Shown here one piece after another: positions 23,837 to 25,753 of a stretch of 64,000 bases of DNA (its first letter is position 1; every line of letters starts with the position of its first letter). The notes beneath the pieces are model-generated. The model was not told the DNA's origin, did no database searches, and was given only the letters and a program-made list of their open reading frames with translations. This DNA is from an uncultured Candidatus Saccharibacteria bacterium (lineage in GTDB: Bacteria > Patescibacteriota > Minisyncoccia > Phycocordibacterales > UBA6899): contig CAYXYK010000002.1 of assembly GCA_964469335.1 (NCBI GenBank), forward strand, positions 189,549 to 253,548, given 5' to 3'. The position numbers and the translations under genes were made by a program.

Positions 23837-23907
23837 TGGGAGATCGTCTAATGGTAGGACAGCGGCCTTTGAAGCCGTTAATCTTGGTCCGATTCCAAGT
23901 CTCCCAG
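23837..23907 (+). tRNA. tRNA-Gln (anticodon UUG)
   Basis: Manual fold: acceptor TGGGAGA/TCTCCCA (U1:A72, G73 discriminator as in bacterial tRNA-Gln), D-loop with GG, anticodon stem GCGGC/GCCGT with loop CTTTGAA (anticodon TTG), T-arm CTTGG/CCAAG. No encoded CCA. Confidence 0.75.
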
Positions 23908-23911
23908 CAAA

Positions 23912-24949
23912 CTACTTTTTCTCGCTTGTAGTCCGAATAAGAGCGAGCTCAAGAGGAAGAGACGGTATTACGCTCCATCCGATATCGTGCGATGCATGGA
24001 TGAATTCAGAAAGCACATGAGAGTTAATACGCTTCTCTTTTGAGGAAGCTAGCTCTTTGATCAGCGTCATATCATCTGGAGGAAATTCGTCTTTCAGTGT
24101 TACCTCCATGTTTGGTGCATAGCGAAGCAATAATATCGCACGCATCTTGGCAAGCAGCATCTTCAGGTAGACTTTCATGTCGATGCGCTCTTCACTCGCC
24201 TTTTTGAGCGCTTCGAGTCCCCCTGCAGGATCACCTGCTTCGATCGAGCGGACCACGCTATTCACCAGATCATGTGTCGGAGCACCAACCACTCTGGCTA
24301 CGGTATCGAGCTCGATCTTTCCTCCTTCTGCTGAGATGAGCACTTTTTCGAGCACAGAAAGAGTATCGCGATACGAACCATCACCGAACATCGCCACGAT
24401 ATCCGCAGAAGGTACGTCGAGTTTTATCTTTTCCTTTTTCGCTATCTCGATCGCATATTCTTTGAGCTCTATGAGCGCTGGTTGTTTGAACGTAAATGTC
24501 TGGCAACGTGAAATGATGGTCTCGGGAACCTTCTCACGGTCTGTGGTCGCAAGAACGAAAATGACATGTGCGGGAGGCTCCTCAAGAGTCTTGAGGAGTG
24601 CATTGAAAGCTTCTTTGGTGAGCATATGCACCTCATCGATAATATAGACTTTATATGGTGACTCAAACGGCATAGTTGAGACTCCTTCGCGTAGCTCACG
24701 GATGTCATCGATACCACGGTTCGAAGCAGCGTCGAGTTCATAAAGGTCAGAAGGCTTACACCCTATCTCTGCGGCAAAAATGCGTGCAACCGTAGTTTTT
24801 CCAGTTCCTCTTCCCCCTGAGAAAAGATACGCATGGGAAATGTTCTTATCCTTGATCGCACGAAGGAGTGTCGAGACAATCTCGTCCTGCCCACGAACGT
24901 CAGCAAACTCTTTTGGGCGGTATTTACGATACAAAGCTAATTCAGACAT
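23912..24949 (-). CDS. dnaX: DNA polymerase III subunit gamma/tau
   Basis: MSELALYRKYRPKEFADVRGQDEIV..., Walker A GGRGTGKTT, Walker B YIIDEVHML and sensor SRCQ. Start set at the internal ATG 24949; the track ORF extends upstream. Confidence 0.85.
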   Translation of the reverse strand: MSELALYRKYRPKEFADVRGQDEIVSTLLRAIKDKNISHAYLFSGGRGTGKTTVARIFAAEIGCKPSDLYELDAASNRGIDDIRELREGVSTMPFESPYKVYIIDEVHMLTKEAFNALLKTLEEPPAHVIFVLATTDREKVPETIISRCQTFTFKQPALIELKEYAIEIAKKEKIKLDVPSADIVAMFGDGSYRDTLSVLEKVLISAEGGKIELDTVARVVGAPTHDLVNSVVRSIEAGDPAGGLEALKKASEERIDMKVYLKMLLAKMRAILLLRYAPNMEVTLKDEFPPDDMTLIKELASSKEKRINSHVLSEFIHASHDIGWSVIPSLPLELALIRTTSEKK

Positions 24950-24979
24950 AAAAAGGATTATACAGTATTTTACGCATGA

Positions 24980-25007
24980 AAAAAGGCACTCTTTCGAGCG
25001 CCCGAAG
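24980..25007 (-). terminator. Rho-independent terminator (GGGCGCTC-GAAA-GAGTGCC + U6) ending the ffs-like RNA just upstream of the dnaX promoter
   Basis: Minus strand reads GGGCGCUCGAAAGAGUGCCUUUUUU, followed by TATAAT and then the dnaX start. Confidence 0.7.
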
Positions 25008-25168
25008 GGGTGCGACAATCCCTGCTGTGGTACCAAGGTTACCGCTTACTTCCGAAGTGGGTCATTAGCTGGCCAGGCATGTAGGCCCAGAGTGTGGGTT
25101 GCAAGACTCGACCAAGGTGGATGCTTTCCATGGAAAAGTCCCGGTTACAGCAAAGTGTGTCGCACCAC
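24980..25168 (-). ncRNA. ffs: Putative SRP RNA (ffs)-like small structured RNA
   Basis: It lies directly upstream of dnaX on the same strand, the classic ffs-dnaX linkage. It has its own sigma70-like promoter (TTGACC-17-TAATAT) and an intrinsic terminator. The ~150-nt body has 5' GGUGCGACA...GCUGU pairing with 3' ACAGC...UGUCGCACC (closing helix) and an internal hairpin GGGACUUUUCCAUGGAAAGCAUCC. The segment GCCUGGCCAGCUAA...CUUCGGAAGUAAGCGG resembles SRP helix-5/8 sequence. A canonical GNRA domain-IV tetraloop is not evident, so the identity is tentative. Confidence 0.45.
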
Positions 25169-25173
25169 TCGAG

Positions 25174-25202
25174 ATATTACGAGACAATGATGATTCGGTC
25201 AA
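25174..25202 (-). promoter_or_regulatory. Sigma70-type promoter for the ffs-like RNA (TTGACC-17 nt-TAATAT)
   Basis: Minus strand reads TTGACCgaatcatcattgtctcgTAATATctcgagtG. The -35 hexamer overlaps the U-tract of the upstream terminator. Confidence 0.5.
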
Positions 25203-25410
25203 TAAAAAGGCACCTCGTGTAAGGGGCCTTGCAGTGGAACGCGATGTCCCGAGAACGACGAACGCGGTAACGTTCGTGCGTGTCAGCATATATTAGCCGA
25301 AGAACTGTTGAGGCTCTGCGACGATTTTCGCCTTGTTGAGGCGAGAATTCCAGTCCGGTGAGACTGGATTTTCTGACACTGCATTCGAAACTCGAAACAT
25401 CTCGTCCTTC
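25203..25410 (-). ncRNA. Candidate 6S-like (SsrS-like) or other rod-shaped sRNA; alternatively a 35-codon small ORF
   Basis: Bounded by the promoter TTGACA-16 nt-TAGGAT (25414..25442) and a terminator GGCCCCUU-ACAC-GAGGUGCC+U5 (25203..25232). The 5' end GCAGAAGGACGAGAUGUUUCGAG pairs with the 3' end CUCGGGACAUCGCGUUCCACUGC in ~19 of 23 positions, and an inner GUGUCAG/CUGACAC helix gives a rod with central hairpins. A 35-aa ORF (MFRVSNAVSENPVSPDWNSRLNKAKIVAEPQQFFG) is also present. Confidence 0.35.
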
Positions 25411-25413
25411 TGC

Positions 25414-25442
25414 ATCCTAGCTTGAAAACCTATTCTGTCAAA
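25414..25442 (-). promoter_or_regulatory. Sigma70-type promoter TTGACA-16-TAGGAT driving the 6S-like RNA
   Basis: Minus strand reads TTGACAgaataggttttcaagcTAGGAT. Confidence 0.45.
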
Positions 25443-25477
25443 CTCCCCCTGTTCGTGCCCTGGAGTTTTAATTCTTA

Positions 25478-25753
25478 CTAGATACCTGTCTTCTGAAGAT
25501 CGGAAGCCACTTCGCAGACGTGCTTGCCATTGTGCGGTTCACAAAGTTCATGCAATGCATCGTTCTCCTTTTCATTCTCACCGTGGCAGCAGTTGCTCTT
25601 TGATTTCCCGCAAGGGCATTTCCCTTCTTTGTCGAACACGATCCCCTCAGGAGGGAGCGAGCAGGTTTCCTTACCTTCGGATACTTGTGCGCACGCACAG
25701 TTCCCTCCGCAGCCGACGAACTCCTTTTGATCATCATTTTTTGACATGAACAT
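25478..25753 (-). CDS. Small Cys-rich putative metal-binding protein (91 aa)
   Basis: MFMSKNDDQKEFVGCGGNCACAQ...CSLPPEGIVFDKEGKCPCGKSKSNCCHGENEKENDALHELCEPHNGKHVC: 14 Cys in CxC, CxxC and CC arrangements. Followed by a hairpin terminator. The overlapping Arg/Ser-rich ORF 25468..25737 is rejected. Confidence 0.55.
   Translation of the reverse strand: MFMSKNDDQKEFVGCGGNCACAQVSEGKETCSLPPEGIVFDKEGKCPCGKSKSNCCHGENEKENDALHELCEPHNGKHVCEVASDLQKTGI

What the first reader, a model, noticed from the sequence alone, without database searches (positions are those of the whole stretch)
24950..25477. ncRNA islet upstream of dnaX: an ffs-like RNA and a 6S-like rod RNA, each with its own promoter and terminator
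The 530-bp gene-free stretch on the dnaX strand contains two complete transcription units. (1) TTGACA-16-TAGGAT, then a ~175-nt RNA whose 5' and 3' ends are extensively complementary (rod with internal hairpins, reminiscent of 6S RNA), ending in the terminator GGCCCCUUACACGAGGUGCCUUUUU. (2) TTGACC-17-TAATAT, then a ~150-nt RNA with a closing helix GGUGCGACA/UGUCGCACC and an internal hairpin, ending in GGGCGCUCGAAAGAGUGCCUUUUUU right before the dnaX promoter, the classic ffs-dnaX arrangement. SRP domain IV is not canonical (no clear GNRA loop), which would be unusual if this is the SRP RNA.
Basis: partly seen in the sequence, partly recalled or inferred. Interest (0 to 1): 0.55.

Follow-up and report, generated by a model that had tools for sequence, protein, structure and literature searches.

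The report
Two orphan small-RNA genes upstream of dnaX
The gap in front of dnaX in this uncultured Parcubacteria (CPR) genome holds two real small structured RNA genes, but they are neither the signal-recognition-particle RNA nor a recognisable 6S RNA: they are new RNAs found only in a narrow group of relatives, and their function is unknown.

Summary
Observation confirmed. On the minus (dnaX) strand, 24950-25477 holds two promoter-to-terminator units. RNA1 runs about 25407->25204 and RNA2 about 25166->24979. Both promoters and both terminators are conserved in position in relatives. An independent assembly is identical.

RNA1 is a well-supported structured RNA. Of 63 pairs, 39 show compensatory change across 5 lineages, with 90% of cells paired against 33-45% in slid controls. 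Its fold is a 20-bp closing helix, a tight three-way junction, a hairpin with an invariant UACCG loop, and three apical hairpins. RNA2 has one known orthologue. It is an irregular rod with a nearly invariant apical segment and has 6 compensatory pairs.

Interpretation only partly supported.
- No SRP, 6S, RNase P or tmRNA model matches either RNA, even at E<=10. Firmicute controls gave SRP RNA upstream of dnaX.
- The SRP-like GGAA/GUAAGCGG of RNA2 is not kept in its orthologue.
- RNA1 lacks a 6S-type central bubble.
- Both RNAs are patchily present among relatives with 76-92% identical DnaX.
- A 2015 paper reports no ffh or ffs in Parcubacteria.
- dnaX has its own extended -10 promoter and looks leaderless.

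Best reading: two new, dispensable, independently transcribed structured sRNA families, probably acting in trans by binding a protein. The mechanism is inferred.

The parts
25414..25441 (-). RNA1 promoter, TTGACA-16-TAGGAT
   Evidence: Both hexamers and the 16-nt spacing are conserved over variable spacers: L171 and L175 (TAGTAT), L161 (TAATAT), L162 (TAGAAT); weakened in L167 (GTGACA/TAGTAC).
25204..25407 (-). RNA1 transcript, about 204 nt (inferred start about 7 nt after the -10, end in the U-run). The body is 25407..25231.
   Evidence: Fold z = -6.4. Consensus structure and covariation. Model R1 finds orthologues in L171, L175, L162 and L161.
25386..25407 (-). RNA1 P1, 5' strand of the 20-bp closing helix. 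It pairs with 25237..25257.
   Evidence: helix 1: 20 pairs, 13 with changes on both sides, 92% of cells paired.
25237..25257 (-). RNA1 P1, 3' strand
25258..25277 (-). RNA1 hairpin P6, with an apical UACCG (25268..25264) that is invariant in all 7 homologues. It stacks directly on P1 and P2 at a three-way junction.
   Evidence: Invariant columns. Helix 6 is 97.5% paired with 3 compensatory pairs.
25278..25382 (-). RNA1 P2 (25382..25373 with 25286..25278), which encloses hairpins P3, P4 and P5. This part is missing in the short variant of L167-L170.
   Evidence: helices 2-5. Short variant.
25204..25230 (-). RNA1 intrinsic terminator: AAGGCCCCUU-ACAC-GAGGUGCCUU stem-loop ending in U5
   Evidence: The hairpin is kept with base changes in L171, L175, L161 and L162.
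25174..25202 (-). RNA2 promoter, TTGACC-17-TAATAT
   Evidence: L175 has TTGACC-17-TAGTAT.
24979..25166 (-). RNA2 transcript, about 188 nt. The body is 25166..25009.
   Evidence: Fold z = -3.95. Orthologue in L175/L176 at 70% identity. 41 pairs are all kept, 6 of them compensatory.
25061..25088 (-). RNA2 apical segment GGGCCUACAUGCCUGGCCAGCUAAUGAC, nearly invariant between the two orthologues while the flanking helices vary
   Evidence: Alignment. Folds.
25124..25138 (-). RNA2 5'-side hairpin with a conserved UUCCAUGG loop
   Evidence: helix 2, with one compensatory pair.
24979..25003 (-). RNA2 intrinsic terminator plus U6
   Evidence: Conserved in L175-L178.
24957..24964 (-). dnaX's own extended -10 element TGTATAAT, 7 nt before the ATG at 24949 (apparently a leaderless mRNA). 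Not part of the RNAs, but it shows that they are separate units.
   Evidence: A matching element lies 6-8 nt before the ATG in relatives with and without the RNAs.
23912..24949 (-). dnaX (clamp-loader gamma/tau), 345 aa
   Evidence: Pfam DNA_pol3_delta2, E = 9e-37.

Best explanation
The spacer holds two independent small-RNA genes of previously undescribed families.

Transcription units. Each gene is a complete promoter-to-terminator cassette. Both sit between the terminator of a conserved Cys-rich small-protein gene and dnaX's own extended -10 promoter. Transcription by the housekeeping sigma factor starts right at the first base pair of a closing helix and stops at an intrinsic terminator. 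This should give stable RNAs of about 204 nt (RNA1) and about 188 nt (RNA2).

Folds. RNA1 folds into a 20-bp closing helix P1. A tight three-way junction joins P1, P2 and hairpin P6, which has an invariant UACCG apex. P2 opens into three hairpins, P3 to P5. RNA2 is an irregular rod (P1, P1b, P3, P4, P5) with one 5'-side hairpin and a nearly invariant 28-nt apical segment.

Distribution. Both are accessory RNAs. They occur only in a shallow clade of Lloydbacteria-like Parcubacteria and have been lost or gained repeatedly within it.

Shown: the units, their conservation, the strand, the folds, non-coding status, non-membership of the Rfam families, the patchy distribution, and dnaX's separate promoter.

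Inferred: they act in trans. Compact, covarying helices present a few invariant unpaired nucleotides while the rest of the sequence drifts, and no long single-stranded seed is conserved. For that reason I think the likeliest mode is binding, scaffolding or sequestering a protein partner, rather than antisense pairing. The partner is unknown.
For: - Units and conservation.
- Identical independent assembly.
- RNA1 structure: three-sequence consensus with 71 pairs (63 in the RNA body, 8 in the terminator), 15 compensatory. Five lineages give 39 of 63 pairs with changes on both sides, 89.7% of cells paired against 33-45% when partners are slid, and 0 of 500 shuffles reaching any measure.
- Model R1 scores L162 at 54 bits and L161 at 25 bits over its full length, although nucleotide identity is only about 50%.
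- Strand: the reverse strand scores 17-20 bits against 187-192 forward.
- RNA2: 41 of 41 pairs are kept in both sequences, 6 compensatory against 0-2 in slid controls. I read further helices P4 and P5 from the two separate folds.
- Not coding: 1- and 2-nt indels between orthologues. Substitutions by codon position are 8/17/15.
- Not a known family: with positive controls.
- Accessory: RNA1 plus RNA2 in the window and L175/L176; RNA1 alone in L171/L172, L161 and L162/L163; a truncated RNA1 in L167-L170; neither in L179/L180, L164-L166, L173, L174 or L183. DnaX tree.
- Separate dnaX promoter.
Against: - No expression data. Transcript ends are inferred from motifs.
- RNA2 rests on two sequences only.
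- The RNA1 alignment used for counting was fitted to the model structure.
- Nothing identifies a protein partner. 'Protein-binding' is an argument from architecture, so a base-pairing or ligand-sensing role is not excluded.
- Only about 2.5 kb around dnaX was available for most relatives. 'Absent' therefore means absent from this locus, not from the genome.
- The short RNA1 variant (L167-L170) folds weakly (z about -1.9). Either the 5' half is dispensable or that copy is decaying.
Confidence: 0.62

Rival explanations
1. RNA1 (or RNA2) is a very divergent 6S-type RNA. It would bind the sigma-70 RNA polymerase holoenzyme as an open-promoter mimic and sequester it.
For: - The size (about 180-200 nt), strong sigma-70-type promoter and long closing helix formed by the 5' and 3' ends fit.
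- Sequence drifts fast while structure is kept, as in 6S RNAs.
- 6S RNA is non-essential, which fits the patchy presence.
- RNA2 is a rod overall.
Against: - No 6S model (or any other) matches at E<=10 in the window or the orthologue.
- RNA1's supported fold has a three-way junction with at most 3 unpaired nucleotides where a bubble should be, and a three-hairpin apical domain instead of a terminal stem.
- RNA2's largest internal loop is one-sided: about 28 nt including a hairpin, opposite 3-4 nt.
- The family is confined to a very shallow clade.
Confidence: 0.12
2. They are ordinary base-pairing regulatory sRNAs. The conserved unpaired stretches would pair with target mRNAs: in RNA1 the A-rich AUAUGCUG joiner and the UACCG loop, and in RNA2 the UUCCAUGG and apical loops.
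For: - They are stand-alone genes with a promoter and terminator, are restricted to one lineage, are dispensable, and have short invariant unpaired motifs.
Against: - Most of each RNA is locked in covarying helices.
- The invariant unpaired stretches are only 4-9 nt.
- The one notable complementarity found (21 nt at 76% between RNA1 P6 and RNA2) shrinks to 5 bp in L175 by my own reading of the sequences, so it is probably chance.
- No targets were identified.
Confidence: 0.15
3. RNA2 is the organism's SRP (4.5S/ffs) RNA with a non-canonical domain IV, in the ffs-dnaX arrangement known from Firmicutes.
For: - SRP RNA does lie directly upstream of dnaX in the Firmicute control loci L020 and L056.
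- The window's RNA2 contains GGAA followed by GUAAGCGG, which resembles GGAA-GGAAGCAGCC of 4.5S RNA (sequence; the 4.5S sequence is from my own knowledge).
- RNA2 is rod-like.
Against: - No SRP-clan match at E<=10, even on the 197-nt query, and none in the orthologue.
- The motif is not conserved in L175.
- The motif lies on the 3' strand of helix P4, not at the apex.
- RNA2 is absent from this locus in relatives with 89-92% identical DnaX.
- No other CPR locus examined had an SRP RNA near dnaX.
- PMC4508563 reports no ffh or ffs in Parcubacteria.
Confidence: 0.03
4. They are cis-acting leaders (tandem riboswitch- or attenuator-like elements) that control read-through into dnaX.
For: - The layout promoter, multi-helix fold closed by P1, intrinsic terminator, then an ORF start 30-55 nt downstream looks like a transcriptional riboswitch.
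Against: - dnaX keeps its own extended -10 element 6-8 nt before the ATG in relatives with and without the RNAs.
- I saw no Shine-Dalgarno sequence by eye that would serve a read-through transcript.
- I saw no alternative antiterminator pairing by eye.
- RNA2 has its own conserved promoter.
- The RNAs come and go while dnaX stays.
Confidence: 0.05
5. They are relics or passengers of a mobile element (for example a guide or scaffold RNA of a lost transposon-encoded nuclease, or a selfish promoter-terminator cassette) with no role for the host.
For: - Presence is patchy.
- The RNA2 cassette is bounded by a 10-nt direct repeat GTGCCTTTTT, 224 nt apart.
- A weak hit (14 bits, E = 0.08) to sot0042, an Rfam 'sense overlapping transcript' family that I recall, without checking, as IS200/IS605-associated.
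Against: - There is no transposase, integrase or reverse transcriptase nearby.
- No similarity to phage, plasmid or viral collections.
- No second copy in the 64-kb window or in 187 loci.
- The direct repeat is simply the 3' half of two terminators.
- Strong compensatory evolution shows selection on the fold.
- The sot0042 hit did not appear in the wider search.
Confidence: 0.03

Closest known systems
SRP RNA (ffs / scRNA; Rfam RF00169, RF01854), which lies upstream of dnaX in Firmicutes
   Same: - It is a small stable RNA gene with its own promoter and terminator, placed immediately upstream of dnaX.
- RNA2 is a rod closed by its 5' and 3' ends and has a conserved apical segment, so a protein-binding module displayed on a rod is a possible analogy.
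   Different: - The covariance models give no match.
- There is no conserved GNRA-capped helix 8 with its symmetric and asymmetric loops.
- The SRP-like words in the window are not conserved in the orthologue.
- The RNA is dispensable at this locus among close relatives.
- Parcubacteria are reported to lack Ffh.
6S RNA (ssrS; Rfam RF00013 and 6S-Flavo)
   Same: - Length is about 180-200 nt.
- The promoter is strong and sigma-70-type.
- A long irregular closing helix is present.
- Structure is conserved while sequence drifts.
- The RNA is non-essential.
   Different: - The models give no match.
- RNA1 has a tight three-way junction and a branched apical domain instead of a central bubble and terminal stem.
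- RNA2's main loop is one-sided.
- The phylogenetic range is very narrow.
Orphan structured bacterial ncRNAs known only from comparative genomics (for example raiA or OLE-type motifs)
   Same: - They are defined by covariation.
- They have multi-helix junctions with a few invariant unpaired nucleotides.
- They are stand-alone genes with no known partner.
   Different: - No similarity to any of these families in Rfam 15.
- These RNAs are far more narrowly distributed, in a clade with at least 81% DnaX identity.
- They are arranged as adjacent promoter-terminator cassettes.

Membership tests
Bacterial SRP RNA (Rfam clan CL00003) | Scores with the family covariance models (RF00169, RF01854 and related) | tested here: not met
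   No match at gathering score, nor at E<=10 on 751 nt, on the 197 nt of RNA2 alone, or on the L175 orthologue. Controls L020 (235 bits) and L056 (59 bits) were found.
Bacterial SRP RNA (Rfam clan CL00003) | Conserved domain IV (helix 8): an apical GNRA-type tetraloop with conserved symmetric and asymmetric loops that bind Ffh | tested here: not met
   The window has GGAA...GUAAGCGG, but L175 has CCCUGGGGCAAACAAG at the same place. In the folds the segment is the 3' strand of helix P4, not an apex.
Bacterial SRP RNA (Rfam clan CL00003) | Retained as an essential gene wherever Ffh exists | tested here: inconclusive
   RNA2 is absent from this locus in L171/L172 and L167-L170 (DnaX 89-92% identical) and in more distant relatives. 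Relocation elsewhere in those genomes cannot be excluded with about 2.5-kb flanks.
Bacterial SRP RNA (Rfam clan CL00003) | A partner protein Ffh encoded in the genome | not testable with these tools
   Only 64 kb of the genome is held. PMC4508563 states that neither ffh nor ffs was detected in any Parcubacteria genome analysed.
6S RNA | Scores with the Rfam 6S models | tested here: not met
   No match for RNA1 or RNA2 at E<=10.
6S RNA | Rod made of a closing stem, a large two-sided central bubble and a terminal stem | tested here: not met
   In the RNA1 consensus, P1, P2 and P6 meet at a three-way junction with 0-3 unpaired nucleotides, and P2 leads to three hairpins. RNA2 is rod-like, but its largest loop is one-sided.
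6S RNA | Binds sigma-70 holoenzyme and templates short product RNAs | not testable with these tools
   This is a biochemical property.
Riboswitch / transcription-attenuation leader | The fold and terminator lie in the 5' leader of the regulated gene, with mutually exclusive terminator and antiterminator pairings | tested here: not met
   dnaX has its own conserved extended -10 element 6-8 nt before the ATG, also in RNA-less relatives. RNA2 has its own promoter. No antiterminator was seen by eye. No riboswitch family matched.
Small protein-coding gene / type I toxin mRNA | A conserved reading frame with excess third-position substitutions and indels in multiples of three | tested here: not met
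   There are 1- and 2-nt indels between orthologues. Substitutions by codon position are 8/17/15. The shared ATG overlaps the -10 hexamer and is missing in L162.

The most novel reading that the evidence does not exclude
RNA1 and RNA2 would be founding members of structured-RNA classes specific to CPR bacteria, each the RNA subunit or decoy of a protein. Two concrete versions are possible. RNA1 could be a polymerase- or sigma-binding regulator built on a three-way junction, that is, a structurally new answer to the 6S problem. RNA2 could be a rod that displays an invariant apical module for a protein in a lineage reported to have lost the SRP. In either case, such RNA genes would spread or vanish as promoter-to-terminator cassettes through recombination at terminator U-tracts.
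Probability: 0.12. Interest if true: 0.7.

Novelty: new variant of a known kind. Interest (0 to 1): 0.4.

Why it matters
CPR/Patescibacteria make up a large share of bacterial diversity, yet I found almost nothing on their non-coding RNAs in the literature searches run here. This locus gives one RNA family with unusually clear covariation from only five lineages, and a second candidate family. Both can be turned into covariance models and searched across CPR genomes.

The result also corrects a tempting annotation by synteny: 'RNA upstream of dnaX = ffs' does not hold here. It further shows that gene callers translate straight through these RNAs, producing false ORFs of up to 159 aa and N-terminally extended DnaX.

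The function is unknown and the range is narrow, so the immediate impact is modest.

Tried and rejected
- **Rfam 15.** I ran it at gathering score on the window and on 22 related or control loci, and at E<=10 on the islet, on each RNA alone and on the L175 orthologues. Only tRNAs and chance-level hits appeared: terminator-only matches to Phe_leader and TarB, lncRNA fragments, and sot0042 at 14 bits.
- **Collection scans with DnaX.** The genome contigs and metagenome-contig scans returned nothing closer than 55% identity and no conserved spacer. Useful relatives came only from the large protein index and exact-protein look-ups.
- **Viral, phage and plasmid searches.** Pattern scans of viral contigs and blastn against phages and plasmids found nothing.
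- **nhmmer and model R1.** Searches over 187 loci and the whole window found no extra copy and no homologue outside the shallow clade.
- **RNA1-RNA2 pairing.** The 21-nt partial complementarity is not conserved in L175, by my own reading of the sequences.
- **By-eye ideas dropped as chance or unconserved:**
  - T-box-like GGUACCGCG in P6, which is present only in L169.
  - Complementarity of the P6 loop to the 16S 530 loop, which is expected by chance.
  - A reduced RNase P reading of RNA2 (GGAAAG plus a long-range CCUUGG helix), which has no model match and is not conserved in L175.
  - An SRP Alu-type UGUAA motif, which is CGCAA in L175.
- **Coding potential.** Rejected.
- **Other CPR loci.** Five of the 22 more distant CPR loci checked have gaps of about 150 nt or more upstream of dnaX (L006, L009, L081, L088, L090). 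None shows a homologous or generally structured RNA there.
- **Literature.** Searches for 6S, SRP or ncRNA in CPR yielded only the 2015 statement that SRP is absent from Parcubacteria.
Full report
**What is there.** The genes in this part of the window are on the minus strand. dnaX is 23912..24949, 345 aa, with Pfam DNA_pol3_delta2 at E = 9e-37. The 374-aa ORF that starts at a TTG at 25036 is a spurious extension into the spacer. Upstream lies a 91-aa Cys-rich ORF with no Pfam match (25478..25753).
- TTGACA-16-TAGGAT at 25441..25414.
- A body of about 177 nt, followed by the hairpin GGCCCCUUACACGAGGUGCC and U5, ending at 25204.
- Directly after that, TTGACC-17-TAATAT at 25202..25174.
- A body of about 158 nt closed by GGUGCGACA/UGUCGCACC.
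- The terminator GGGCGCUCGAAAGAGUGCC plus U6, ending at 24979.
- TGTATAAT at 24964..24957, 7 nt before the dnaX ATG.

RNA1 folds far better than shuffles (z = -6.4). RNA2 folds clearly better (z = -3.95). An independent Logan assembly (L182) is identical over 372 nt.

**Organism and relatives.** DnaX places the window in CPR/Parcubacteria, close to genomes named Candidatus Lloydbacteria. The genome and metagenome collection scans gave nothing closer than 55% identity. The large protein index gave DnaX relatives from 90% identity downward, and I fetched their contigs. Synteny is conserved: ClpB, Dus, two small ORFs, the Cys-rich ORF, a spacer, then dnaX. The spacer content varies:
- RNA1 plus RNA2 in the window and in L175/L176 (DnaX 90-91% identical).
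- RNA1 alone in L171/L172 (89%), L161 (85%) and L162/L163 (81-82%).
- A 138-nt RNA1 lacking the 5' half in L167-L170 (89%).
- No RNA (spacer about 35-45 nt) in L179/L180 (84-85%), L164-L166 (80%), L173 (77-79%) and L174 (76%).
- A named Lloydbacteria genome, L183 (71%), has only a long terminator-like hairpin.

On a DnaX neighbour-joining tree, L171 (RNA1 only) groups with L175 (both RNAs), with the window outside. RNA-less lineages are interspersed among RNA-carrying ones. Both RNAs are therefore accessory at this locus and have been lost or gained more than once. The tree rests on a single protein and its resolution is limited.

**RNA1 is a real structured RNA.**
- The three closest sequences give a consensus of 71 pairs (63 in the RNA body, 8 in the terminator), 15 with compensatory changes.
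- A covariance model without the terminator (R1) recovers L162/L163 at 54 bits and L161 at 25 bits over its full length. Nucleotide identity to the window is only about 50% there, against 72% for dnaX.
- On the five-lineage alignment, 39 of 63 pairs change on both sides. 89.7% of cells are paired, against 33-45% when partners are slid. No shuffle out of 500 reaches any measure. The alignment was fitted to the model, which favours the structure, but the margin is large.
- The reverse strand scores only 17-20 bits, so the dnaX strand is the functional one.

The fold has the following parts:
- P1, 20 bp, starting at the predicted first transcribed base.
- A junction where P1, P2 and hairpin P6 meet with 0-3 unpaired nucleotides.
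- P6 carries UACCG, which is invariant in all seven homologues.
- P2 opens into hairpins P3 to P5. These covary freely and are absent from the short variant.
- AUAUGCUG before P6 and CC-ACU after P1 are also nearly invariant.

**RNA2.** Only one orthologous lineage was found (L175-L177), at 70% identity. All 41 consensus pairs are kept in both sequences. Six are compensatory, against 0-2 in slid controls. Comparing the two separate folds, I read two further helices by eye, each with a compensatory change:
- P4: CUUGC..CC with GG..GUAAG in the window, and UUUGCUCC with GGGGCAAA in L175.
- P5: UGGG with CCCA in the window, and AGGCC with GGCCU in L175.

This makes RNA2 an irregular rod with one 5'-side hairpin (conserved UUCCAUGG loop) and a 28-nt apical segment that is almost invariant. 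The evidence is suggestive rather than strong.

**Neither RNA is coding.** Orthologues differ by 1- and 2-nt indels. Substitutions between L171 and L175 fall 8/17/15 on codon positions 1/2/3 of the only shared frame. That frame's ATG overlaps the -10 hexamer and is missing in L162. Gene callers nevertheless predicted a 159-aa ORF across both RNAs in L175 and a 144-aa one in L176.

**They are independent of dnaX.** An extended -10 element (TGnTATAAT-like) lies 6-8 nt before the dnaX ATG in relatives with and without the RNAs. dnaX therefore has its own promoter and is apparently leaderless. RNA2 has its own conserved promoter. I saw no antiterminator alternative and no Shine-Dalgarno sequence for a read-through transcript. 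Both of those are by-eye checks.

**Comparison with known families.**
- Rfam 15 found only three tRNAs in the window.
- Nothing from the SRP, 6S, RNase P or tmRNA families appeared at E<=10 on the islet, on each RNA alone, or on the L175 orthologues. Nothing but tRNAs appeared in nine related loci.
- The method works: SRP RNA was found upstream of dnaX in two Firmicute control loci at 235 and 59 bits.
- None of the ten more distant CPR loci scanned with Rfam had an SRP RNA near dnaX, and most have no spacer there at all.
- The SRP-like GGAA-GUAAGCGG in the window's RNA2 is not conserved in L175 and is not apical.
- Nelson & Stegen 2015 (PMC4508563) state that neither ffh nor ffs was detected in any Parcubacteria genome. 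I could not verify this for this genome.
- For 6S, RNA1's supported fold lacks the defining central bubble and terminal stem. RNA2's main loop is one-sided.
- No similarity to phage, plasmid or viral sequences was found.
- No second copy was found in the window or in the other loci.

**How it most likely works.**

Shown: two sigma-70-type transcription units give stable, 5'-paired, terminator-capped RNAs. Selection maintains their helices and a handful of unpaired nucleotides. They are dispensable and restricted to one lineage.

Inferred: they act in trans. The invariant parts are short and are displayed on rigid covarying scaffolds: the UACCG apex at a three-way junction in RNA1, and the apical segment of a rod in RNA2. 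For that reason I favour binding, scaffolding or sequestering a protein over antisense pairing. I give roughly 0.35-0.4 to the protein-binding mode, within 0.62 for the overall explanation. A 6S-like function remains possible (about 0.12) even though membership fails. SRP RNA is very unlikely (about 0.03).

**How the cassettes may turn over.** Each cassette begins with its -35 hexamer right after a terminator U-tract and ends in ...GCCUUUUUU. The RNA2 cassette is bounded by a 10-nt direct repeat GTGCCTTTTT, 224 nt apart. This suggests gain or loss by recombination between terminator ends. I read this as a consequence of terminator similarity, not as evidence for a mobile element.

**Verdict.** The ffs and 6S labels are not supported. 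What remains is two new small structured RNA families of unknown function in a narrow CPR clade. RNA1 has strong comparative support for its fold and RNA2 has modest support. Interest is moderate.

Noticed in passing
window 24947-24964 (-); also L161, L162, L164, L167, L171, L175, L179, L183 just upstream of dnaX: dnaX has an extended -10 element (TGTATAAT in the window) that ends 7 nt before its ATG, with no Shine-Dalgarno sequence. The mRNA is therefore probably leaderless. A matching element lies 6-8 nt before the ATG in all close relatives. The Cys-rich ORF (start at 25753) shows a similar TAATTT-6 nt-ATG layout.
   Followed up: partly
L175 1443-1922; L176 1-435; window 23912-25036 and 25065-25289 (-); protein P0016: Gene callers and ORF lists translate straight through the RNA genes. 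This gives a 159-aa ORF over RNA1 plus RNA2 in L175, a 144-aa ORF in L176, a 74-aa ORF in the window, and TTG-extended DnaX of 374 aa. P0016's 28-aa N-terminal extension reads, on back-translation, like a translated terminator and -10 region.
   Followed up: partly
window 25204-25213 and 24980-24989: A 10-nt direct repeat (GTGCCTTTTT on the minus strand), 224 nt apart, bounds the RNA2 cassette exactly. L171, which lacks RNA2, reads as if the segment between the repeats had been deleted or never inserted.
   Followed up: partly
L167 1005-1142, L169 1409-1546 (also L168, L170): This is a 138-nt RNA1 variant with a weakened promoter (GTGACA/TAGTAC). It lacks P2-P5 but keeps P6, the P1 3' strand and the terminator. 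It folds only weakly (z about -1.9), so it is either a minimal form or a decaying copy.
   Followed up: partly
window 25478-25753 (-): A 91-aa Cys-rich protein (CGGNCAC..., CPCGK, CCH motifs) has no Pfam match. It is conserved in the same position in all relatives, with or without the RNAs, and gene callers sometimes miss it or call it on the wrong strand (L161, L167, L183).
   Followed up: no
window 25306-25314 and 25334-25342: The 9-nt word GCCUCAACA occurs twice, 28 nt apart, in the apical parts of RNA1 hairpins P4 and P5. It is conserved in L171 and L175 but not in L161 or L162.
   Followed up: no
window 25032-25052 versus 25257-25277: There is a 21-nt stretch of 76% complementarity between RNA2 (GAAGUAAGCGGUAACCUUGGU) and RNA1 hairpin P6, including 8 perfect pairs. 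By my own reading it drops to about 5 bp in L175, so it is probably chance.
   Followed up: yes
L009 about 2770-2890 (Paceibacterota, upstream of dnaX): A long, near-perfect inverted repeat lies within the roughly 270 nt folded upstream of dnaX in a distant relative (z about -8 against mononucleotide shuffles). It is unrelated in sequence to RNA1 and RNA2.
   Followed up: no
window 23837-23908 (+): tRNA-Gln(UUG) converges on dnaX and ends 3 nt from the dnaX stop codon. A tRNA also lies downstream of dnaX in several distant CPR loci (L001, L002, L004, L005, L009).
   Followed up: no
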